Positions 26,128-34,924 of a stretch of 42,016 nt of DNA are shown piece by piece. The stretch comes from a virus. Taxonomy: Duplodnaviria; Heunggongvirae; Uroviricota; Caudoviricetes. The stretch lies in IMG/VR virus record IMGVR_UViG_2778261180_000002, positions 1 to 42,016 of that record; one strand, 5' to 3'. The notes below the pieces were generated by a model. The model ran no database searches and was not told where the DNA came from. It saw only the letters and a list, made by a program, of their open reading frames with translations. How positions within the stretch are numbered: the stretch's first letter is position 1; each line of letters starts with the position of its first letter. Both the position numbers and the translations under genes were made by a program.

Positions 26128-26503
26128 TGTAACAGATGTGCTTTTTGACCCCGATTTTTGCGACTTCAATTTGTGGGTAACACGCCGAGTGCAAACGGTG
26201 GATGAGGACGGGATCGGCAGCAACAGTGAAGTTAAAAAGCAGTTTGCCGGAGTCGTAACTGTTGATCGCTCTCTGGAAAACCGCCGTATGCAGGCAGGGC
26301 AGGTAATCAGTGGTGCAATTCTGATTGTGACGACTGAGCGACTGACGCAGGGACAGACTGGCCGTGATGCCGATATCGTGACGTATCAGGGCCGTGATTA
26401 CCGTGTGACCTTCGTCGACCCGTATACAGCTTATGGTGCCGGATTCGTTCAGGCGCATTGTGAGTTGCTGCCGTTTGATGGGGGAATTCCGGTTGAGCAA
26501 TAA
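26114..26503 (+). CDS. hypothetical virion protein (head-tail joining block)
   Basis: 129-aa ORF in the structural operon. Confidence 0.45.
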   Translation: MPTLDVTDVLFDPDFCDFNLWVTRRVQTVDEDGIGSNSEVKKQFAGVVTVDRSLENRRMQAGQVISGAILIVTTERLTQGQTGRDADIVTYQGRDYRVTFVDPYTAYGAGFVQAHCELLPFDGGIPVEQ

Positions 26504-27041
26504 CACCAGCACAGAGCGCGGATGGCTGATACCAACCAGTGGCGATCCGGATTATGACGAAGCGCTCGACAGGCTGTTAAGCCAGTGGATGCGTAACGTT
26601 TCCGGTCTGTCTGCCGGGATGGTTCGTCCGCGCTGGCAGAAAGAGCAGCCGCCACTGCTACCGGCTGAAACGAACTGGTGTGCGTTTGGGGTTATCGGAT
26701 GGTCAGGTGATGACAGTCCGGCATTCACCAGACAGACCGATGATGGCTCTCAGCTCTGGCGGCATGAAACGATTGAGTGTATGGCTTCGTTTTATGGACC
26801 GGCGGGGATGGTGTATGCGTCCCGGTTTCGTGACGGTATATCTGTACCGCAGAACAATGCAGCACTGAATGCGCTGGGGCTGTCTCTTGGCGATTACACA
26901 GGTCTGACTCCCTTCCCTGAACTTATTAATCAGCAATGGGTCCGCCGCTACGATATGACGGTGCGCCTGCGCCGGAAGGTTGTGCGCGAGTACGGTATTA
27001 AATCGCTGGTGGAAGCACCAGTTATCTTTTTCGGAGATTAA
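26478..27041 (+). CDS. hypothetical virion protein
   Basis: ORF frame open from 26433; ATG 26478 chosen (TTG 26493 possible). Confidence 0.4.
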   Translation: MGEFRLSNNTSTERGWLIPTSGDPDYDEALDRLLSQWMRNVSGLSAGMVRPRWQKEQPPLLPAETNWCAFGVIGWSGDDSPAFTRQTDDGSQLWRHETIECMASFYGPAGMVYASRFRDGISVPQNNAALNALGLSLGDYTGLTPFPELINQQWVRRYDMTVRLRRKVVREYGIKSLVEAPVIFFGD

Positions 27042-27044
27042 GCT

Positions 27045-28190
27045 ATGGCACAGGGCTTGCCTGTATCAAACGTTGTTAATGTTGATGTGATCATGTCGCC
27101 GCGTGCAGCATCAGGGCGAAATTTTGGTGCATTACTCATTCTCGGCCCGTCCACAATCATTCCGGTAAGTGAGCGCATTCGTCGTTATTCTGCCGCGGAA
27201 GATATTGGAAAAGATTTTGGCGTGGAATCACCAGAATATAAAGCTGCGCAGGTGTTTTTCTCACAATCACCGAAACCTCAGGAGGTTTTTGTTGGTCGTT
27301 GGGTGAAAACGAAGGGAGACAGCGAACAGGCCACGCCTGAGACGCTGGAGCAGGCTGTGAATGCCATGCTCGATTATACTTCATGGTATGGGCTGGGGAT
27401 TGCAGACGATGAAGATATTCCGGATGCAGACTGGCTGAAAGTGGCTGCGGTGATCGAATCCTCTTCTGTAAGCCGTATTCTGGCGATTACGACAAGCGAT
27501 GATAAATGCCTGCAGACTGCATCCAGCGATGATTTGGCATCAAAACTGAAAACCGCCGGATATTCACGCAGTTTTATTCAGTATTCATCGGGTAATAAAT
27601 ACGCTGCGTTATCTGCATTTGGCCGGGCATTCACGGTTAATTTCAATGGCAGTAATACCGCGATTACGCTCAAGTTTAAGCAGGAGCCGGGTGTCGGGTA
27701 TGAAACACTGACAGTCAGCCAGGCATCGGCACTTGATGCAAAAAACTGCAATGTATTCGTGTACTACCAGAATGATACGGCTATCCTCCAGCAGGGAGTG
27801 ATGGCTAACGGCGATTTCTTTGATGAACGCCACGGCCTGGACTGGTTACAGAATTATGTGCAGACCAACCTCTATAACCTGCTTTATACCAGCACCACGA
27901 AAGTTCCCCAGACTGAAGCCGGTATTACCCGACTGTTATCAAATGTTGAAAAATCACTGGATCAGGCCGTTCAGAATGGACTGATTGCTCCGGGCGTATG
28001 GAACGGGGGCGACCTTGGTCAGTTGTCATCAGGTGACACACTGCCCAAAGGTTATTACGTATACGCCCAGCCGCTGGATGAACAGGCACAATCAGAACGT
28101 GAAGCCCGTAAGGCTCCGGTGATTCAGGCTGCAATAAAACTTGCAGGCGCGGTTCATTACGCTGACGTACAGATTAACGTTGTTCGCTAA
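27045..28190 (+). CDS. tail sheath protein (putative)
   Basis: 381 aa directly upstream of a tube-sized ORF, chaperone and tape measure. Contractile tail implied by baseplate J/V/W genes downstream. Confidence 0.55.
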
Positions 28191-28200
28191 GGGGAAGTGA

Positions 28201-28641
28201 ATGTCTACCTATTCTTTTATGGATGTCACTGCGACGCTGACCGGCCCGACCGGTTCGATTGACCTCGGGTACGGTTCTGCAAGTTCTGAAGAGGGGATTG
28301 TGGTTGCGATGGGCGGTCCTAAAAACACCATGACCATCGGTGCTGATGGTGAAGTGATGCACAGCCTCCATGCAGATAAAAGCGGGACGATTACCGTTAA
28401 CCTTCTGAAGACATCACCGACAAATAAAAAATTGTCGCTGGCGTATAACGCACAGAGCCAGTCTTCTGCCACATGGGGGAATAACGTTATCGTGATCCGC
28501 AACAAGGTCAGCGGCGACATCATCACGGCACGCAGTGTTGCGTTCCAGAAACAACCGGATAACGCCAACGCTAAAACCGCTAATACGATGCCGTGGGTGT
28601 TTGACTGCGGCAAGATTGACCAGGTTCTCGGGGAGTTTTAA
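28201..28641 (+). CDS. tail tube protein (putative)
   Basis: 146 aa between sheath-like gene and chaperone. Confidence 0.55.
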   Translation: MSTYSFMDVTATLTGPTGSIDLGYGSASSEEGIVVAMGGPKNTMTIGADGEVMHSLHADKSGTITVNLLKTSPTNKKLSLAYNAQSQSSATWGNNVIVIRNKVSGDIITARSVAFQKQPDNANAKTANTMPWVFDCGKIDQVLGEF

Positions 28642-28644
28642 TGC

Positions 28645-29097
28645 ATGGAATTCGAAATTAAAGGCGTGAAATATCGCGTGGCAAAACTCAGCGTTTTTGA
28701 CCAGCTGAAAGTGACCCGCAAACTTCTGCCGGTACTGGCGGGAATGATGTCAGATTTCGGGAGCATTCGCTCCCGTTTGCCTGCTGACGGCAAAATCGAC
28801 ACCGTGAAATTCGAGCAGTTAAAACCGGTGTTTGAAACCATGCTCCCGCGTATCGCTGAGGAACTGTCTTCCCTGACCGAAGATGACACCGATGCGATTA
28901 TTCATCCCTGTCTTGCGGTGGTGTCGCGGCGTCATATGGATGGATGGGTGCCGGTATTTACCCAGGGCGAACTGATGTTTGATGATATTGACTTGCTGGT
29001 CATGCTTCATCTGGTGGCGCGGGTGGTCGCCGATTCGCTGGGAAATTTTTTGCTTACACCCCTTACCAGCACGACACAGAGCCTGCAACAGGGCTGA
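28645..29097 (+). CDS. tail assembly chaperone with -1 frameshift signature
   Basis: 150 aa. Canonical slippery heptamer G GGA AAT at 29040-29046; the -1 frame then stays open for 80 codons to TGA 29283-29285, just past the tape-measure start. Confidence 0.6.
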   Translation: MEFEIKGVKYRVAKLSVFDQLKVTRKLLPVLAGMMSDFGSIRSRLPADGKIDTVKFEQLKPVFETMLPRIAEELSSLTEDDTDAIIHPCLAVVSRRHMDGWVPVFTQGELMFDDIDLLVMLHLVARVVADSLGNFLLTPLTSTTQSLQQG

Positions 29098-29274
29098 CGT
29101 TTAACAGCCTGCCGGACGGGCTGTCCTACCTTCTCAATCCGGTTGACGCCGGGTTAATTCCCTATACAGCACTTAAAGATGGCTCTGTCGATTTGTATGA
29201 CATTGCTCTCTTGAATGACCATCTGGCGGTAAAAGCGGATAACCAGCGGCGCATTGAGAAATGGAGAGAGGATA

Positions 29275-31281
29275 ATGAACGCTGAAACTATTAAAGATTT
29301 CCTCGTCTCGCTTGGCTTCAGTGTGGATGATGCAGGAGCGAAAAAGTTCGGTTCTGTCCTCGCCGGTACAACTGCAAATGTCATCAAAATGGGGCTGGCT
29401 GTTGAAGGAGCTGCGCTGTCCGTGGTGGCCTTCACGGCTAAGATCGCCTCCGGCCTGGATAATCTTTACTGGGCGTCACAGCGCACCGGCGCGACGGTCC
29501 AGGGAATTCAGTCTATTGGCTATGCGGTTTCGCAGGTTGGCGGCAGTGTGGACGCTGCGCGATCTTCTCTGGAAAGCCTCTCCCGGTTTATTCGTAACAA
29601 TCCCGGAGCAGAAGGCTTTCTGAATCGCCTGGGCGTACAGACCCGTGATGCCAGCGGTAACATGCGTGACATGGCTGCTATCTTTACGGGCGTTGGACAG
29701 AAACTCAGCAGCATGCCGTATTACCGGGCTAACCAGTATGCGCAGATGCTGGGCATTGACGAAAATACCCTGATGGCTATGCGTCGCGGAGTGGGGCAGT
29801 TCAGCGCTCAGTATTCAGAAATGGTGAAAGCGATCGGATTTAATGCCGATCAGGCTGCCTTATCGTCAAACCGGTTTATGACCTCGCTGAAATCGCTCGG
29901 TGAAATGGCCGGGATGGCGCGGGACAAAATCGGATCGAATCTTGCGGACGGACTGGCGGGGCAGATTGATAACCTGCGCAAAAAGATAATTGAAAATTTT
30001 CCCAAAATTGAAGTCACCATCACAAAGGTCATAAAGGGGATCCTCTGGCTGGGTGAGATAGTCGGGCGGGTAGCATTTCGGATAGTCGATGGTGTCGGAG
30101 ATATCATCGAGTGGTGGGGGAAACTGGATGCCGAAACGAAAACCCTGATAGAGGTTATCGGCGGTCTGGTTGTCGCCATGCGGATACTTAACTCTACTTT
30201 CTGGATGTCACCTATAGGGCTGATTACCGGTCTGATCGTGGCTCTCGGTCTCTTGTGGGAAGACTACAAAACATGGAAAGAAGGCGGTAACAGTCTTATC
30301 GACTGGGAAAAATGGCAACCGGCAATAGATAAAGCGAAGGATGCGATCACCTGGCTTCGTGATCACCTTCTGGAACTAAAAGATGGTGTTGGCGGCTGGC
30401 AAAATGCACTGGAAATCCTCGGTACATTCATCGCGGGTGTCTGGGTATCCAAGGTTCTGGGGGCTTTCGGAAAAATATCAGGTTTACCGGTCCCACCCTG
30501 GCTTAAATTGTGGGCGCTTTACGCGGGCTATATTGTTAGTGACAGAGAAAATATTGCTGATAGCGCAAAATCTTCACTGAGGTATACGAAGCGAATTATC
30601 GGCGACACGCTGGCTGCTATTGGTATAAAAACAGATATCGGACGCAGGGATGTCAGTGAGGTCCGTGAATGGCCTGCGTGGATGGACTGGTTGCACGGGG
30701 GACCCGGTAAAGTTATCCGGCAGGGACAGAGTAACGGTGTAGTGCATGGCTCCAATGTCCAGCCCGACATCCCCGGCGGCGGCACTCTTGCTGATCGCAA
30801 CAATAACCCCGGGAACATTCGCCCGGTGAGCGGTAAAGGGTTCCGTTTTTTCGAATCAGCGCTTGAGGGCTGGGAGGCGATGAAAAACCAGCTCATGCGT
30901 TACTTTACCGGGAAAACAACCGGACGGGCATTACAGACTATTCAGGATATTGTCAGTACCTGGGCCCCGGCAGGTGATAACAACGATCCGAAAAAGTATG
31001 CACAGGATGTTGCGAAATGGATGGGAGTATCACCGAATGCAATATTGAATCTTACAGATCCCCGGACTATGGGAGCATTGATGCAGTCGATGGCGCGCAA
31101 AGAAGGTTATTCAAACTGGAACAGCCCGCTGGCGTATAAGGTCGCCGCTGGCAGCCTTAACCAGCAGACTGTTATAAATGTTCATGGAGTTAACAACCCT
31201 CAGGAGGCGGCTAATCTGATCGCTGACAAGCAGGGGGCTGTAAATGCCAGGGCGGTACAGCAATTGAAAGGACCTGCGTAA
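29275..31281 (+). CDS. tail tape measure protein
   Basis: About 668 aa, helix-rich with hydrophobic central segment. ATG 29275 preceded by GGAGAGAGG. Follows chaperone. Confidence 0.75.
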   Translation: MNAETIKDFLVSLGFSVDDAGAKKFGSVLAGTTANVIKMGLAVEGAALSVVAFTAKIASGLDNLYWASQRTGATVQGIQSIGYAVSQVGGSVDAARSSLESLSRFIRNNPGAEGFLNRLGVQTRDASGNMRDMAAIFTGVGQKLSSMPYYRANQYAQMLGIDENTLMAMRRGVGQFSAQYSEMVKAIGFNADQAALSSNRFMTSLKSLGEMAGMARDKIGSNLADGLAGQIDNLRKKIIENFPKIEVTITKVIKGILWLGEIVGRVAFRIVDGVGDIIEWWGKLDAETKTLIEVIGGLVVAMRILNSTFWMSPIGLITGLIVALGLLWEDYKTWKEGGNSLIDWEKWQPAIDKAKDAITWLRDHLLELKDGVGGWQNALEILGTFIAGVWVSKVLGAFGKISGLPVPPWLKLWALYAGYIVSDRENIADSAKSSLRYTKRIIGDTLAAIGIKTDIGRRDVSEVREWPAWMDWLHGGPGKVIRQGQSNGVVHGSNVQPDIPGGGTLADRNNNPGNIRPVSGKGFRFFESALEGWEAMKNQLMRYFTGKTTGRALQTIQDIVSTWAPAGDNNDPKKYAQDVAKWMGVSPNAILNLTDPRTMGALMQSMARKEGYSNWNSPLAYKVAAGSLNQQTVINVHGVNNPQEAANLIADKQGAVNARAVQQLKGPA

Positions 31282-31931
31282 TGGACTTTTTATCTGTTTT
31301 ACTGCAGCAGCGAACCCGCTCAATAGGAATCATTATTCCTGATGTGGTTATTACCGAAAAGCACACTGACGCCCTGGAAATTACGGAACATCCTGTTGAA
31401 CAGCCCACGAATGCTGGTGCCAGTGGTGAGGGCGCTGGTTATATATCAGAACACGCATTCAGGCGCCCTTCTGAGGTTGTGATGGAAACCGGTTTTTCCG
31501 GAGGCGGATCGCTGCTTGATTTTGCCAGTAACCTGACGGCTACCAGTTTACTGGGGCTGAGCCCGAAAGAACTGTATCAGGAACTGCTTAACCTGCAGCG
31601 GAATCGTATTCCTTTCGATGTGACAACCGGCAAGCGTATTTACAACAATATGTTGATAAAAACGCTGGAGGTCACGACCGATAAGAGTAGTGAAAATGTG
31701 CTTCTGGCGACGCTTACCCTCAGGGAAGTAATTATTACCTCCACGCAGTCAGTCAGGGTTGCCCCGAAAAACAATATGACCGAGGGAGTCGGAACGTCTG
31801 CTGTGCAGAATACAGGCACCAAAACAACCGTGTCACCGAATAATTCCATTCTGAAATCGCTGCCACAGATGGCGCAAGAAGGTATCTCCACTGTTGATGG
31901 GTATTTGAGCAATTTATTTCTGGGAAGATGA
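31281..31931 (+). CDS. tail/baseplate assembly protein (hypothetical)
   Basis: 216-aa ORF, TAATG overlap with tape measure. Confidence 0.45.
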   Translation: MDFLSVLLQQRTRSIGIIIPDVVITEKHTDALEITEHPVEQPTNAGASGEGAGYISEHAFRRPSEVVMETGFSGGGSLLDFASNLTATSLLGLSPKELYQELLNLQRNRIPFDVTTGKRIYNNMLIKTLEVTTDKSSENVLLATLTLREVIITSTQSVRVAPKNNMTEGVGTSAVQNTGTKTTVSPNNSILKSLPQMAQEGISTVDGYLSNLFLGR

Positions 31932-31934
31932 TTC

Positions 31935-32237
31935 ATGAAAGCCGTAGAAATCCCACTGGTTGCTGACAATCAGACTTTTGCCACCACAATTAACGGTTCG
32001 GTTTATCACCTGTCTGTCATCTGGCGAGGAGAGTACTGGGTTCTGGATCTTGCTGACAGCAATGGTTCCGCCATTATATCAGGTATACCGATGATTACGG
32101 GGGCTGACCTGCTGGCACAGTATCGATATATGGATCTGGGTTTTTCTCTGGTGGTGCTTTGCGACGTGGCAGGGCCGGAGAATCCGACGCAATTCGATCT
32201 TGGAACGCTCTCACACCTCTATGTTTTCACGGAGTAA
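31935..32237 (+). CDS. hypothetical tail protein
   Basis: 100-aa ORF in the tail operon. Confidence 0.45.
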   Translation: MKAVEIPLVADNQTFATTINGSVYHLSVIWRGEYWVLDLADSNGSAIISGIPMITGADLLAQYRYMDLGFSLVVLCDVAGPENPTQFDLGTLSHLYVFTE

Positions 32238-32239
32238 CA

Positions 32240-33271
32240 ATGTCGAAAAACTGGATGCGTCACTTTGAATTATTGCTTGTTGATGATAAGGGCGACGGGA
32301 TAAAAATTTCTGAGCTTAAAGTCACTTTCAATATTCAGAAAATGCCTGCGACCATATTTAATGGATTCGTTGGGAATTTTAAGGTTTATAACCTGTCCCC
32401 TACCACTCAGAACCGGATTATGCAGAAGGAGTTTTCGCGTATACAGGTTATTGCCGGATACAAGGGGCAACCGGATGCAGCAGGTAATTATCCTGATGAA
32501 AACGTTGGCATGATATTCAATGGAGATATCCGTTTTACTGTCACTGGTAAAGATAATGCCACAGACAGTTGGATCATATTGCAGTGTATTGACAGCTGGG
32601 AAGGCCACCTGAACGCAAGTGTGAAAACCACAGTGGCAGCTGGCTGGAAGTACAGCGATCTTTTCAGTCTGGGTATGAAATCATTCGAACCATATGGCAT
32701 CGAATCCGGCGCAGTTCCTGACATGCCTGAAACGGTATTTCCCCGAGGCCGCGTTGTTTATCAAAACACATCAAGGTTGATGAATCATATCGCAGGGCAG
32801 TGTAAAGCTAACTGGTGGTATGAAAATAATCTGGTAAATATTGTTCCTGAAGATAAATATATTGGTGTTGCTACGGTGTTGAATGCTAACACCGGGCTTA
32901 TCGGTATGCCACAGCAGACGATGGGAGCTGGCGTAAATGTCAGATGTCTGATTAATCCAAATATTAAGCTGGGTGGACTTATTCGTCTGGATCAGGCATC
33001 CGTATACCGTGCCTCTTTGAGTAATGACCAGGTAGCGAAATCGCCAGCACGACTGGATGAGTCTGAAAGCGACGGTAATCTCTACGTTAACGGTCTGCCA
33101 GGCATGTCACAGCCTGCCAGTATTAATACTGACGGTGATTACATTGTGGGCAGCATTGATTATACTGGCGACACCCGAGGGCAGGCGTGGTATATGGACC
33201 TGCTTTGCCTGGCTAAAGGTGGCAAAGAATTGCTTAACTCGAAAGGGATTGATGCGGCGAAATACACATGA
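32240..33271 (+). CDS. baseplate hub-like protein (putative)
   Basis: ATG 32240 with GGAG upstream; the track's extension from 32159 overlaps the upstream gene. Position before the spike/baseplate genes. Confidence 0.5.
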   Translation: MSKNWMRHFELLLVDDKGDGIKISELKVTFNIQKMPATIFNGFVGNFKVYNLSPTTQNRIMQKEFSRIQVIAGYKGQPDAAGNYPDENVGMIFNGDIRFTVTGKDNATDSWIILQCIDSWEGHLNASVKTTVAAGWKYSDLFSLGMKSFEPYGIESGAVPDMPETVFPRGRVVYQNTSRLMNHIAGQCKANWWYENNLVNIVPEDKYIGVATVLNANTGLIGMPQQTMGAGVNVRCLINPNIKLGGLIRLDQASVYRASLSNDQVAKSPARLDESESDGNLYVNGLPGMSQPASINTDGDYIVGSIDYTGDTRGQAWYMDLLCLAKGGKELLNSKGIDAAKYT

Positions 33272-33603
33272 AAAGACCATTGTTGACAGTTTTACTTGTC
33301 TGTATCTCCTTCATTTCCTTTGCTGATACCGGTTGCGGACCATTTACGATCAACTGGAAAGCGCAAGACGGACTTGCAAGGATTAATGGACAGAAACCGG
33401 AGACACAGAAAATCATCTTTCTCAAACAGGAAGGTGATTATGACAATGTGAACATCCAATGGATGATTCCGGGTAATGGGCGTTGGTTAGGGATGGATTT
33501 TGTGGCCAGAAATGGCAAGCCGATCCTCAATGTTGAAGTTATCCGCAAAAATATGGACGACCCTCGGGAGTTCTGGACGTATGATTGCCGGAAGGTGAAG
33601 TGA
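33268..33603 (+). CDS. small secreted protein with cleavable signal peptide
   Basis: 111 aa. N-terminal MKRPLLTVLLVCISFISFA signal-like segment. ATGA overlap with the preceding baseplate gene. Confidence 0.5.
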   Translation: MKRPLLTVLLVCISFISFADTGCGPFTINWKAQDGLARINGQKPETQKIIFLKQEGDYDNVNIQWMIPGNGRWLGMDFVARNGKPILNVEVIRKNMDDPREFWTYDCRKVK

Positions 33604-33759
33604 ATTACATTGGCGTCCAGCTGCTGCAGAACAGCATGGACGCGCCGAAAATCATCGGCTCTTTCCCGTGTAAGAAAGTCGCTGGGGGACCAGTGTATAT
33701 CCTGCCAGGTTGATGATCTTAAAGTGGTGAGTTAGGATTTCTTGAAAGGGAGATTTAAC

Positions 33760-34512
33760 ATGTCATCAGCCTCACCGAAACTCATCACAGACCAGCTATT
33801 CGAAAGGTTATTCCCATCGCTTGAGCAGGGAGAGAATCTCTTGGGTGAGTTTGAAGTTTTTAGCATCATTCGTGATGCTAAAAAAATACCCGTAGAAGAT
33901 GAATCTCTTACTATTCAGGGCATGGGATGGATTGTTCTTGGGGATGTTGAGAAAGGTTCAGAATTATGTGAACGAGCCTTATCAATTAACTCATCGGAGT
34001 CAGCTATTTGGATAAATTATGCTGTAGCTCTTGGACAAAAAGGCCTGTACACCAAACAGCGGAACATTTTAAAGCGTGGAGCCGACATGCTTCTTCCCTC
34101 ATTGATGATGTTTGATTTTATCACATCCTCTTTTTGGGCTGATCATGAAGAGATGAAGCGAGTTAAAAAATTGTTTAAGAGCTTGGGTGATATTGAACTA
34201 AGCGATAAACAAAAAGGTGATTATATGGGTGCGGAGGTGATATACGACACGTTAGAAAAACTTCCTATATCTGAGAGGGGTAAATTGTCTGGCATGGCCG
34301 CTTTGGCAATGCAGATATTAGAAAGTAATGGTGTTAGAGCCAGAAATTGTGGGCAGTATGTATCCCCGGATGGAATGCTTTCATTTAATTATGACGTAAC
34401 GGGTGCTACACCAGATTTAATCGTAAAATTAAATGATGAGCTGGCCTCAAAAATAGTTGAGAATGACTTGTTTGATGCCGATTCTATAGTGCTATTTACT
34501 CCAGGGGGGTAA
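33760..34512 (+). CDS. hypothetical protein, first gene of AT-rich two-gene cargo module
   Basis: ATG 33760 with AAGGGAG 8 nt upstream (track start is a TTG at 33742). 250 aa, no recognisable domain. Visibly AT-rich relative to flanking tail genes. Confidence 0.6.
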   Translation: MSSASPKLITDQLFERLFPSLEQGENLLGEFEVFSIIRDAKKIPVEDESLTIQGMGWIVLGDVEKGSELCERALSINSSESAIWINYAVALGQKGLYTKQRNILKRGADMLLPSLMMFDFITSSFWADHEEMKRVKKLFKSLGDIELSDKQKGDYMGAEVIYDTLEKLPISERGKLSGMAALAMQILESNGVRARNCGQYVSPDGMLSFNYDVTGATPDLIVKLNDELASKIVENDLFDADSIVLFTPGG

Positions 34513-34513
34513 T

Positions 34514-34924
34514 GTGTCAATTGAAATATATGAATTCATAAAAATTGCCAAGAAAAATATTTCTGACGACTCTGGTGAGATTGGAGTAAGGACTGCGGTT
34601 AGTCGTGGTTATTATGCCATGTACCATGCTTGTTTAAGCCTTAGCGGTCCGGTACCAAGACAACATCCACTTAATGGCTCTTTTAAAGGCGGGACTCACT
34701 CACGCCTTGCCCAATACATGACTGAATGTTCAAAATTGATATCCTCTACAAATGATTTGGAAGTTCGCAAGCTAGGCGTAAAATTGAAGATGTATCATAA
34801 ATATCGCTGTGATGCTGATTATGAACTAAACAAAACTATTGATGGAAAGTATGCGGAAATTGTAATTGCAGAGGCTGAAAATATTGCTGAGAGTGTGCGA
34901 TTAGTTAGATCATCTGCTGCTTAG
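34514..34924 (+). CDS. HEPN-like domain protein, second gene of cargo module
   Basis: 136 aa from GTG 34514, 1 nt after the upstream TAA, with GGGGGG upstream. Motifs SRGYYAMYHACLSL and YRCDADYE resemble the classic HEPN (PF05168-type) pattern. Confidence 0.55.
   Translation: MSIEIYEFIKIAKKNISDDSGEIGVRTAVSRGYYAMYHACLSLSGPVPRQHPLNGSFKGGTHSRLAQYMTECSKLISSTNDLEVRKLGVKLKMYHKYRCDADYELNKTIDGKYAEIVIAEAENIAESVRLVRSSAA

What the first reader, a model, noticed from the sequence alone, without database searches (positions are those of the whole stretch)
29040..29285. Programmed -1 frameshift signature in the tail assembly chaperone
The chaperone ORF contains the canonical slippery heptamer G GGA AAT (29040-29046). 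By hand translation the -1 frame stays open for 80 codons (FFAYTPYQHDTEPATGL...IEKWREDNER) until TGA at 29283-29285, just past the tape-measure start codon. This is the arrangement expected for a conserved long-tailed-phage frameshift product. The extension is absent from the six-frame track because it has no start codon.
Basis: partly seen in the sequence, partly recalled or inferred. Interest (0 to 1): 0.45.

Follow-up and report, generated by a model that had tools for sequence, protein, structure and literature searches.

The report
Tail chaperone −1 ribosomal frameshift site

Summary
The chaperone ORF (28645-29097) contains G GGA AAT at 29040-29046. The −1 frame is open from 28992 to TGA 29283-29285, just past the tape-measure ATG (29275). 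The −1 extension is a real coding sequence. It matches Pfam DUF6889 (E=1e-20). In 11 close relatives its variable sites fall mostly on −1-frame third positions (36/59, against 6/58 and 2/59). It has no usable start codon. It lies in the −1 frame in all 34 annotated or genomic relatives examined, and 160 further viral contigs keep a conserved slippery patch. Two homologous phages (Mulock, Magia) already carry an annotated frameshift product, so this is a routine lambda G/GT-type or P2 E/E+E'-type site. RefSeq mis-annotates it in E. coli as a separate CTG-started "DUF6889 family protein". It is lost in 17 of 80 relatives and is a weak shifter in published E. coli assays. The T-run core is invariant. 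No downstream hairpin exists here. A synonymously frozen Shine-Dalgarno-like block (29020-29029) is a plausible upstream stimulator. Interest is low.

The parts
28645..29097 (+). Short (zero-frame) tail assembly chaperone, 150 aa, analogous to lambda gpG and P2 gpE
   Evidence: Pfam Phage_TAC_15 E=1.5e-30, 106.8 bits against a cutoff of 22. phrog_1688 tail assembly chaperone 3.6e-64. It lies between the tube gene (28201-28641) and the tape-measure gene.
29020..29029 (+). Shine-Dalgarno-like block CGGGUGGUCG. It contains GGTGG at 29022-29026, and a second GGTGG lies at 29013-29017. Putative upstream frameshift stimulator (inferred).
   Evidence: It is the strongest anti-SD duplex in the ORF, −12.7 kcal/mol, in the top 0.06% of window 10-mers; the genuine RBSs of four neighbouring genes score −6.6 to −9.7. 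It sits inside a synonymous-site freeze: 1 of 11 third positions varies against a 77% background, and 29020-29053 is 97-100% identical in four representative close relatives (100% in three) against 55-88% in the flanks. GGNGG 6-17 nt before the motif meets the validated criteria of PMC4066793 for heptamers 1 and 2.
29040..29046 (+).
   Evidence: In register. Intact in 63 of 80 IMG/VR relatives. It is the only heptamer in Bordetella phage IFTN9, where a −27.9 kcal/mol hairpin starts 7 nt downstream. Weak in E. coli assays.
29043..29049 (+). Heptamer 2, A AAT TTT (best single candidate)
   Evidence: Belongs to the efficient E. coli class H_HHU_UUY, 11.4% with the IS3 stimulator. Intact in 72 of 80 relatives. 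It is positionally homologous to the C_CCT_TTT or A_AAT_TTT motif plus hairpin of the distant clade.
29046..29052 (+). Heptamer 3, T TTT TTG (same motif as the P2 E/E+E' site). Bases 29046-29049 form the universally conserved U_UUU core.
   Evidence: T_TTT_TTN is intact in 80 of 80 relatives. P2 shifts −1 at TTTTTTG without a hairpin (PMC3091744). The motif is weak in reporter assays, 0.77%. xxT TTT is present in every lineage except Bordetella.
29046..29285 (+). −1 frame extension (T-like part of the long chaperone form), 79 codons plus the TGA stop. The DUF6889 domain maps to about 29160-29276.
   Evidence: Pfam DUF6889 E=1.2e-20, 73.4 bits against a cutoff of 23.9, and phrog_4364 2e-23. Variable columns by −1-frame codon position are 6/58, 2/59 and 36/59. 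Synonymous to nonsynonymous changes against SEN34 are 24:5 in the −1 frame and 2:28 in the zero frame.
29275..31281 (+). Tape measure protein gene. Its start overlaps the end of the −1 extension by 11 nt.
   Evidence: phrog_2276 tape measure 5.6e-248. ATG at 29275 is preceded by GGAGAGAGG. Homologues are annotated as tape measure proteins.
28201..28641 (+). Tail tube gene immediately upstream (context)
   Evidence: Pfam KPP10_Orf10 5.7e-60. On a near-identical contig the same product is recorded as Phage_Tube_PhiTE (PF11681).

Best explanation
A minority of ribosomes translating the chaperone mRNA slip back one nucleotide inside the 13-nt patch GGGAAAUUUUUUG (29040-29052). They then read the −1 frame to TGA 29283-29285 and make a fusion protein of about 213 aa. 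Its first ~135 residues are the chaperone and its last ~79 residues carry the DUF6889 domain. The other ribosomes terminate at 29095-29097 and make the 150-aa short form.

The shared core of the slip is most likely the tRNA-Phe decoding UUU 29047-29049, which re-pairs with UUU 29046-29048. It would slip together with either tRNA-Asn in the P site (A_AAU_UUU, 29043-29049; favoured) or tRNA-Leu in the A site (U_UUU_UUG, 29046-29052; as in P2). G_GGA_AAU (29040-29046) may contribute a little. Three consecutive slip opportunities may add up.

There is no downstream hairpin in this clade. An internal Shine-Dalgarno-like sequence at 29020-29029, 11-17 nt upstream, probably pairs with 16S rRNA and stimulates the slip, as in dnaX and IS911.

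By analogy with lambda G/GT, the shared N-terminal part would coat the tape measure protein and the −1 domain would recruit the tube protein, with neither form ending up in the virion.

Shown here: the frame arrangement, coding constraint on the −1 frame, conservation of the slippery patch, and absence of an independent start. Inferred: which tRNA pair slips, the SD stimulation, the efficiency, and the protein functions.
For: (1) Gene identity and position: Phage_TAC_15 lies between the tube and tape-measure genes.

(2) The −1 extension is a curated family (DUF6889, 1.2e-20; phrog_4364).

(3) Purifying selection acts in the −1 frame only, across 29098-29273.

(4) No conserved start codon lies upstream of the conserved LP-G-ED-WLL-RPV block. 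The window, SEN34, YP3, Omnitron and AbTJ have no such start at all.

(5) The extension is in the −1 frame in 34 of 34 loci, down to 26% chaperone identity. The fusion protein matches 40 phage records as two pieces in two frames.

(6) The only in-register heptamers in the ORF are the three in the patch.

(7) The shift windows of all relatives intersect at roughly window-equivalent 29043-29077. In PSTCR3 a −1-frame stop aligns with 29040-42, and in Bordetella the zero-frame stop falls at about 29077.

(8) Natural variants: heptamer 1 is intact in 63/80, heptamer 2 in 72/80 and heptamer 3 in 80/80. xxT TTT is present in 79/79 distant-clade loci, with a hairpin 5-6 nt downstream.

(9) Published E. 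coli efficiencies with the IS3 stimulator: AAAUUUU 11.4%, GGGAAAU 1.05%, UUUUUUG 0.77% (PMC4066793 Table S3). P2 uses TTTTTTG (PMC3091744).

(10) The SD-like block is the strongest in the ORF, is frozen at synonymous sites, and is retained to 58% identity.

(11) Homologues in Mulock and Magia are annotated as joined frameshift products.
Against: - No experimental evidence for this family was found. The Mulock genome paper does not mention the frameshift, and the family is not among the prophage clusters of PMC4066793.
- Without a stimulator, all three heptamers give only background (0.07-0.12%) in reporter assays, and no downstream structure is present here. Efficiency therefore depends on the unproven SD-like element or on context.
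- The SD-like element is absent in about 6 of 41 distinct variants and in some distant lineages such as Acinetobacter. PSTCR3 has only a weak AGGA.
- The evidence on which heptamer is used conflicts. SD spacing (13 nt from the end of GGTGG 29022-29026; 11 nt from the paired block) and the Bordetella relative favour heptamer 1. Efficiency data and the hairpin clade favour heptamer 2. Conservation within the enterobacterial clade and the P2 precedent favour heptamer 3.
Confidence: 0.85

Rival explanations
1. The slip occurs exactly where the first reader said. tRNA-Gly and tRNA-Asn shift in tandem on G_GGA_AAU (29040-29046), and the T-run is irrelevant.
For: The heptamer is in register. The SD-like GGTGG ends 13 nt before it, a spacing that I recall (not checked here) as close to the dnaX optimum, and one that meets the 6-17 nt criterion. 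Bordetella phage IFTN9 has only this heptamer, with a strong hairpin starting 7 nt after it. The predicted product (…SLGNFFAYTP…) is identical to that of heptamer 2, so the two cannot be told apart at the protein level.
Against: The heptamer is destroyed in 17 of 80 relatives that keep the two-frame arrangement. It is absent in the Burkholderia, Ralstonia, Providencia, Edwardsiella and Pseudochelatococcus lineages. In PSTCR3 a −1-frame stop occupies the equivalent position. G_GGA_AAU gives 0.11% with the IS911 stimulator and 1.05% with the IS3 stimulator in E. coli, and it lies outside the efficient V_VVA_AAR class.
Confidence: 0.12
2. RNA polymerase slippage, not ribosome slippage. The polymerase adds one extra U on the T6 run (29046-29051), giving a subpopulation of mRNAs in which the two frames are fused and read by standard translation.
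For: The T6 run is invariant in 80 of 80 enterobacterial-clade relatives. A +1 T would give exactly the fusion …SLGNFFAYTP…. Public assemblies contain T7 versions of this locus that encode the 213-aa fusion as one ORF, so the run is indel-prone at the DNA or sequencing level.
Against: The review PMC5009743 describes productive bacterial transcriptional slippage on runs of about 9 A's or T's, and six is short. Distant relatives keep the same two-frame arrangement with only T4 (CCT TTT ATY) plus a hairpin placed 5-6 nt after the heptamer, which is a ribosomal-frameshift architecture. Bordetella has no T-run. An upstream SD-like element and its synonymous freeze make sense for ribosomes, not for the polymerase.
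Confidence: 0.05
3. There is no recoding. The DUF6889 domain is made as a small independent protein from its own start, as RefSeq/PGAP annotates (CTG at window-equivalent 29121) and as several GenBank records annotate downstream ATG or TTG ORFs.
For: PGAP calls a 54-aa 'DUF6889 family protein' at this locus in the complete E. coli genomes listed. GZ7, yong1, PSTCR3, BgManors32, ZHS and an Acinetobacter record annotate small ORFs of 41-69 aa. phrog_4364 is a 54-residue family.
Against: In the window the only canonical starts in the frame are TTG codons inside the domain. The PGAP start is a CTG with no spaced SD, and it cuts off the conserved LPDG block immediately upstream. No start position is conserved among relatives, and five lineages have none upstream of the conserved block. 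−1-frame homology begins right at the slippery patch (F-F/Y-x-R…) in nearly every locus. The conserved slippery patch, its synonymous freeze and the distant-clade hairpin would all be left unexplained.
Confidence: 0.04
4. This is a decaying gene. The ancestral gene was a single fused ORF (T7), and the T6 state in the window is an inactivating frameshift mutation or a sequencing error.
For: About ten single-ORF 212-213 aa versions exist in public data, for example E. coli ISC7 CDL28562.1 and Logan contig L036 with GGGAAATTTTTTTG.
Against: The two-frame state is found in 34 of 34 annotated or genomic relatives, in all 40 phage records and in all 80 close viral contigs, each with a zero-frame stop 40-49 nt after the patch. 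These include cultured, plaque-forming phages. All 12 complete E. coli genomes listed carry separate chaperone and DUF6889 annotations. The fused versions are rare and differ by one base in a homopolymer.
Confidence: 0.02

Closest known systems
Phage lambda G/GT tail assembly chaperone frameshift (Levin et al. 1993; Xu et al. 2004, 2013, 2014, as summarised in PMC5009743)
   Same: The gene sits between the major tail/tube gene and the tape-measure gene. [quoted passage not shown] The extension has no start of its own and ends at the start of the tape-measure gene. The first heptamer resembles lambda's G_GGA_AAG.
   Different: No detectable sequence homology to lambda gpG or gpT (Pfam gives Phage_TAC_15 plus DUF6889 only). 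This is a contractile-tail phage. The Z base is U rather than G, which in E. coli lowers efficiency about 40-fold. The patch has three overlapping heptamers and a candidate upstream SD-like stimulator.
Phage P2 E / E+E' frameshift (Christie et al. 2002, as described in PMC3091744)
   Same: An E. coli myovirus with a chaperone pair between the tube and tape-measure genes. A −1 shift occurs at T_TTT_TTG in the same register. There is no downstream hairpin.
   Different: No Pfam-level homology to P2 gpE was detected. P2 E is 91 aa and E+E' is 142 aa, against 150 and ~213 aa here. Here TTTTTTG is preceded by two further overlapping heptamers. The P2 site has been demonstrated experimentally; this one has not.
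Annotated 'tape measure chaperone frameshift product' of Klebsiella phage Mulock (MN098327, QFG06717.1) and Burkholderia phage Magia (MT701587, QPB08698.1)
   Same: True homologues, with 58% and 26% chaperone identity and 64% and 40% extension identity. They have the same gene order and the same −1 arrangement. Mulock has the identical GGGAAATTTTTTG patch and the identical CGGGTGGTCG block.
   Different: Magia uses C_CCT_TTT with a hairpin 5 nt downstream, not the T6 patch. These are annotations only, and the Mulock paper does not discuss the frameshift.
E. coli dnaX and IS911/IS3-family −1 frameshift cassettes
   Same: A slippery heptamer is preceded at about 10-17 nt by an internal Shine-Dalgarno-like sequence that pairs with the 16S rRNA 3' end. 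GGNGG is in the experimentally validated stimulatory set (PMC4066793 methods; PMC5009743).
   Different: dnaX and the IS elements use A_AAA_AAG and also have a downstream hairpin or pseudoknot. None is present here. The stimulatory role of the block here is inferred from pairing energy and synonymous-site conservation only.

Membership tests
Tailed-phage tail assembly chaperone programmed frameshift (lambda G/GT type, Xu et al. 2004) | The gene pair is located between the major tail/tube gene and the tape-measure gene | tested here: met
   Tube 28201-28641, chaperone 28645-29097, tape measure 29275-31281.
Tailed-phage tail assembly chaperone programmed frameshift (lambda G/GT type, Xu et al. 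2004) | The downstream reading frame overlaps the 3' end of the chaperone ORF in another frame and lacks its own initiation signal | tested here: met
   The −1 frame is open from 28992 and overlaps the ORF by 105 nt. It has no ATG or GTG, its only TTG codons lie inside the domain, and no start is conserved in relatives.
Tailed-phage tail assembly chaperone programmed frameshift (lambda G/GT type, Xu et al. 2004) | A slippery sequence lies in the overlap, in register, and is conserved among relatives | tested here: met
   Three overlapping heptamers at 29040-29052 are the only ones in the ORF. The T-run heptamer is intact in 80/80, and xxT TTT in 79/79 distant loci.
Tailed-phage tail assembly chaperone programmed frameshift (lambda G/GT type, Xu et al. 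2004) | The extension is a real protein-coding sequence | tested here: met
   DUF6889 1.2e-20 and phrog_4364 2e-23. Variable columns by −1-frame codon position are 6/58, 2/59 and 36/59, with synonymous to nonsynonymous 24:5.
Tailed-phage tail assembly chaperone programmed frameshift (lambda G/GT type, Xu et al. 2004) | Both short and long products are made, at a fixed low ratio, and both are needed for tail assembly | not testable with these tools
   This needs protein detection and genetics. No experimental report for this family was found.
Pfam Phage_TAC_15 (PF21822) | Score above the gathering threshold | tested here: met
   106.8 bits against 22; residues 6-136 match profile positions 1-120 of 127.
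Pfam DUF6889 (PF21829) | Score above the gathering threshold | tested here: met
   73.4 bits against 23.9; −1-frame residues 39-77 match profile positions 2-40 of 40.
P2 E/E+E' frameshift | T_TTT_TTG in register in the overlap, with no downstream hairpin | tested here: met
   29046-29052. No hairpin meets the published rule. P2 facts are from PMC3091744.
P2 E/E+E' frameshift | Sequence homology to P2 gpE / gpE+E' | tested here: not met
   The Pfam scan of both parts returns only Phage_TAC_15 and DUF6889. The site works like P2 E/E+E' but is not a member of that protein family.
SD-stimulated −1 frameshift cassettes (dnaX / IS911 type) | [quoted passage not shown] | tested here: met
   GGTGG 29022-29026 is 14 nt from heptamer 1, 17 nt from heptamer 2 and 20 nt from heptamer 3, the last being out of range.
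SD-stimulated −1 frameshift cassettes (dnaX / IS911 type) | The SD-like element is conserved beyond what the protein sequence requires | tested here: inconclusive
   Synonymous freeze with P about 4e-6 before correcting for the ~140 windows scanned, and 97-100% nucleotide identity across 29020-29053 in four representative close relatives (100% in three). The element is retained to 58% identity. It is missing in about 6 of 41 distinct variants and in some distant lineages, and the sequences are not phylogenetically independent.
SD-stimulated −1 frameshift cassettes (dnaX / IS911 type) | Pairing with 16S rRNA increases frameshifting | not testable with these tools
   Only a predicted duplex energy is available (−12.7 kcal/mol).

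The most novel reading that the evidence does not exclude
Within one chaperone family the frameshift stimulator has been swapped. The Burkholderia, Acinetobacter and Edwardsiella clades use a single X_XXU_UUU heptamer with a 9-bp hairpin 5-6 nt downstream. The enterobacterial clade, which includes this window, has lost the hairpin. In its place it has a 13-nt run of three overlapping heptamers plus an upstream Shine-Dalgarno-like block, so the required low shift ratio would come from several weak, additive slip opportunities and not from one strong site.
Probability: 0.35. Interest if true: 0.4.

Novelty: new member of a known kind. Interest (0 to 1): 0.25.

Why it matters
The main value is for annotation. 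The locus is present in 346 of 5,426 complete E. coli genomes. In all 12 listed, RefSeq splits the long chaperone form into a chaperone plus an artificial CTG-started "DUF6889 family protein". SEN34, YP3 and the vB_EcoM phages omit the extension entirely. Recognising DUF6889 as the T-like, frameshift-encoded half of a Phage_TAC_15 chaperone gives that domain of unknown function a role. It would also allow a joined CDS to be annotated across this large prophage and phage group, which has at least 590 and 517 matches in the two IMG/VR scans. For the mechanism, the family offers a natural series for studying how slippery-site composition and stimulator type trade off: a hairpin-plus-one-heptamer clade against a no-hairpin, three-heptamer, SD-like clade. 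It does not change the understanding of phage tail assembly or of frameshifting.

Tried and rejected
- **Downstream stimulatory structure.** Folding 29040-29140 gives z = −0.6. The consensus fold of 7 relatives has no covarying pair and encloses the slip site rather than following it. No hairpin meets the published rule (starts 4-10 nt after the motif, ΔG ≤ −7.6) for any of the three heptamers. Rejected for this clade.
- **"Open for 80 codons" as evidence.** A control over 81 ORFs shows that long open −1 frames past a stop codon are common here. Dropped as an argument.
- **Independent initiation.** All ATG, GTG, TTG, CTG and ATT codons in the frame were listed and starts were compared across 23 lineages. 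Rejected.
- **Prior listing in PMC4066793.** The family is not among its five prophage clusters.
- **Mulock genome paper.** It does not mention the frameshift.
- **P2 primary paper (PMC135442).** Not held, so P2 facts come from PMC3091744. The figure of about 10% for P2 efficiency is from memory only and is not used as evidence.
- **PDB sequence search and NCBIfam.** No hits.
- **Structure prediction of the fusion.** Not run. Alignment depth for the extension could not be supplied under the tool's input restrictions, and the result would not bear on the frameshift question.
- **Tracking of SD position with heptamer configuration.** Suggestive (GGAGG lies 13 nt before heptamer 3 in lineages lacking heptamers 1 and 2), but there are too few independent lineages to count as a test.


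Full report
**Observation**

The chaperone ORF runs 28645-29097 and encodes 150 aa. Its zero-frame codons around the site are CTG GGA AAT TTT TTG, so G GGA AAT at 29040-29046 is in X XXY YYZ register. The tape-measure ATG is at 29275, behind GGAGAGAGG. The −1 frame is open from 28992, so the window in which a shift can occur is 28992-29097. The frame has no ATG or GTG, and its only TTG codons (29193, 29211) fall inside the conserved domain.

First, long open −1 frames past a stop codon are common in this window: 29 of 81 ORFs have 55 or more open codons. Openness alone therefore proves little. Second, the only in-register heptamers in the whole ORF are three overlapping ones in GGGAAATTTTTTG (29040-29052): G GGA AAT, A AAT TTT and T TTT TTG.

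**What it is**

The neighbourhood is the tail module of a SEN34-like (Brunovirus) prophage with an E217/Pam3-type contractile tail:

| Gene | Coordinates |
|---|---|
| Terminator | 26433-27041 |
| Sheath | 27045-28190 |
| Tube | 28201-28641 |
| Chaperone (Phage_TAC_15, E=1.5e-30) | 28645-29097 |
| Tape measure | 29275-31281 |
| Dit-like | 31281-31931 |
| Plug | 31935-32237 |
| Hub | 32240-33271 |

The −1 extension matches Pfam DUF6889 (73.4 bits against a cutoff of 23.9) and phrog_4364.

In 11 close relatives, the stretch that only the −1 frame could encode (29098-29273) varies at −1-frame codon positions 1, 2 and 3 in 6/58, 2/59 and 36/59 columns. Against SEN34 it shows 24 synonymous and 5 nonsynonymous codon changes in the −1 frame, compared with 2 and 28 in the zero frame. 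That frame is translated and is under purifying selection.

**Independent start or fusion?**

Aligning the −1 translations from 28 distinct relatives shows a conserved block, LP-G-ED-WLL-RPV…DG--DL-DIA-MND-L-V-ADN. No conserved start codon lies upstream of it. The window, SEN34, YP3, Omnitron and AbTJ have no such start at all.

RefSeq/PGAP does annotate a separate "DUF6889 family protein" at this locus, which occurs in 346 of 5,426 complete E. coli genomes. Its start is a CTG at window-equivalent 29121. That CTG has no spaced Shine-Dalgarno sequence and cuts off the conserved LPDG block. Several GenBank records call small ATG or TTG ORFs at non-homologous positions. These look like annotation workarounds.

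Against that, the extension lies in the −1 frame relative to the chaperone in all 34 loci analysed, down to 26% chaperone identity. The predicted fusion matches 40 phage records as two pieces in two frames. The homologous genes of Klebsiella phage Mulock and Burkholderia phage Magia are already deposited as joined "tape measure chaperone frameshift product" CDSs.

**Where the slip happens**

*Shift-window intersection.* In Providencia phage PSTCR3 a −1-frame stop aligns with window 29040-29042. In Bordetella phage IFTN9 the zero-frame stop falls at about window-equivalent 29077. If the site is homologous across relatives, it lies in roughly 29043-29077.

*Natural variants.* Among the 80 closest IMG/VR relatives (58-71% identity in the extension), counts of intact heptamers are:

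| Heptamer | Intact |
|---|---|
| 1, G_GGA_AAT | 63/80 |
| 2, A_AAT_TTT | 72/80 |
| 3, T_TTT_TTN | 80/80 |

*Distant clade.* In a second set of 80 distant relatives (Burkholderia type), xxT TTT is present in all 79 scored. It is mostly C_CCT_TTT, at the position homologous to heptamer 2. It is followed after 5-6 nt by a 9-bp hairpin, GGGCUGCU…AGCAGCCC. Three of the nine pairs show kept double changes, for example GGGUUGC/GCAACCC. By eye, the Acinetobacter MD-2021a stem is GGACUG/CAGUCC and the Edwardsiella ZHS stem is GGAGCUG/CAGCUCC. Edwardsiella ZHS keeps only the U_UUU tetramer, GAT TTT.

*Bordetella exception.* That phage has only G_GGA_AAT, with a −27.9 kcal/mol hairpin starting 7 nt later.

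*Published E. coli measurements* (PMC4066793 Table S3; % with no stimulator, IS911 stimulator and IS3 stimulator):

| Motif | None | IS911 | IS3 |
|---|---|---|---|
| GGGAAAU | 0.07 | 0.11 | 1.05 |
| AAAUUUU | 0.07 | 0.36 | 11.4 |
| UUUUUUG | 0.12 | 0.25 | 0.77 |
| GGGAAAG (lambda) | 0.28 | 3.8 | 43 |

The efficient classes are V_VVA_AAR and H_HHU_UUY. P2 nevertheless uses TTTTTTG, without a hairpin (PMC3091744).

*Synthesis.* The common denominator is the Phe codon UUU at 29047-29049 preceded by U. Its tRNA can re-pair perfectly one base back. Whether it slips as the A-site partner of tRNA-Asn (heptamer 2) or as the P-site partner of tRNA-Leu (heptamer 3) cannot be decided from sequence. Heptamer 1 is the least supported. 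Slips on heptamers 1 and 2 give …SLGNFFAYTP…, and a slip on heptamer 3 gives …SLGNFLAYTP….

**Stimulators**

There is no significant downstream structure in this clade: z = −0.6, no covarying pair and no hairpin meeting the published rule.

The nucleotides 29020-29053 are 100% identical in three of four representative close relatives and 97% in the fourth, against 55-88% in the flanks. Only 1 of 11 zero-frame third positions varies across the 11 close relatives, against a 77% background (P about 4e-6 for that window, uncorrected for the ~140 windows scanned).

Inside this frozen block, CGGGUGGUCG (29020-29029) forms the strongest predicted duplex with the 16S rRNA 3' tail anywhere in the ORF. 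At −12.7 kcal/mol it is in the top 0.06% of window 10-mers and stronger than the real ribosome-binding sites of four neighbouring genes. It contains GGTGG, which is in the experimentally validated SD-like set when placed 6-17 nt before the motif (PMC4066793 methods). Its distances from the second base of heptamers 1, 2 and 3 are 14, 17 and 20 nt.

The block is retained unchanged in relatives down to 58% chaperone identity. In most lineages that keep only heptamer 3 (L050, L103, L074), a GGAGG or GGAG sits 6 nt closer; one such lineage (L075) has no SD-like element. It is absent in about 6 of 41 distinct variants and in some distant lineages. I treat SD stimulation as plausible but unproven.

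**Rivals**

- *RNA polymerase slippage on T6.* It would give the same fusion. Public assemblies do contain T7 versions that encode the 213-aa fusion as one ORF (P0001; E. coli ISC7 CDL28562.1; contig L036 with GGGAAATTTTTTTG). However, six T's is short for productive slippage (PMC5009743 describes runs of about 9). Distant relatives keep the arrangement with T4 plus a correctly spaced hairpin.
- *Pseudogene or sequencing-error reading.* This is excluded by the universality of the two-frame state, including in cultured phages.

**Comparison and verdict**

This works like lambda G/GT and P2 E/E+E'. By protein sequence it belongs to neither family; it is Phage_TAC_15 plus DUF6889. It is a homologue of the annotated Mulock and Magia frameshift pairs. 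No experimental study of this family was found.

It is a new, mis-annotated member of a well-known kind. The practical result is that DUF6889 is the T-like half of a frameshifted chaperone. The modestly novel angle is the apparent exchange of a downstream hairpin for a triple heptamer plus an SD-like block between clades. Interest is low (0.25).

Noticed in passing
L036:1896-1909 (Logan SRR23924998 contig); protein cluster of P0001, including E. coli ISC7 CDL28562.1: About ten public assemblies carry GGGAAATTTTTTTG (T7 where the window has T6). This fuses the chaperone and DUF6889 into one 212-213 aa ORF with the junction SLGNFFAYTP. They may be homopolymer sequencing errors or real indel mutants of the prophage. 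Either way the slip run is an indel hotspot.
   Followed up: partly
window 29121-29285 (equivalent to NZ_CP127314.1 2649786-2649950): RefSeq/PGAP annotates a separate 54-aa 'DUF6889 family protein' starting at a CTG codon at this locus, which is found in 346 of 5,426 complete E. coli genomes (all 12 listed hits carry this annotation; the CTG start was checked in one). SEN34, YP3 and the vB_EcoM phages leave the stretch unannotated. All are likely mis-annotations of a frameshift product.
   Followed up: yes
L117-L196, about position 698-745 of each; L029:1178-1225; L020:1998-2045; L030:1208-1262: Distant relatives (Burkholderia, Acinetobacter, Edwardsiella and WC36-2 phages) have a conserved 9-bp hairpin, GGGCUGCU…AGCAGCCC, 5-6 nt after a C_CCT_TTT or A_AAT_TTT heptamer, with a few compensatory changes. 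The window's clade lacks it.
   Followed up: yes
window 33742-34924 (also the ORF at 33268-33603): GC content drops to 0.39-0.40, against about 0.48-0.52 on either side. The low-GC stretch covers unknown ORFs (256 aa with a weak, sub-threshold HAT/TPR-like match, and 136 aa) inserted between the baseplate hub and the remaining baseplate genes. The preceding 111-aa ORF has a hydrophobic, signal-like N-terminus. This may be prophage cargo (a moron or a defence gene).
   Followed up: partly
window 29275-31281, residues about 488-667 of the product: The C-terminal third of the tape measure protein matches endolysin and transglycosylase PHROGs (phrog_873, phrog_7182). Homologues are annotated as lytic transglycosylases, so the tape measure probably carries a peptidoglycan-degrading domain.
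   Followed up: no
window 29104-29124: An 8-bp hairpin, ACAGCCUG…CGGGCUGU, is kept in close relatives. It has no covariation and overlaps the codons of the conserved LPDG block. It lies too far downstream (more than 50 nt) to be a classical frameshift stimulator.
   Followed up: partly
window 29254 vs 29275: The mechanical ORF list starts the tape-measure ORF at TTG 29254. The ATG at 29275, with GGAGAGAGG 5 nt upstream, is the likely true start, and it is where homologues are annotated.
   Followed up: partly
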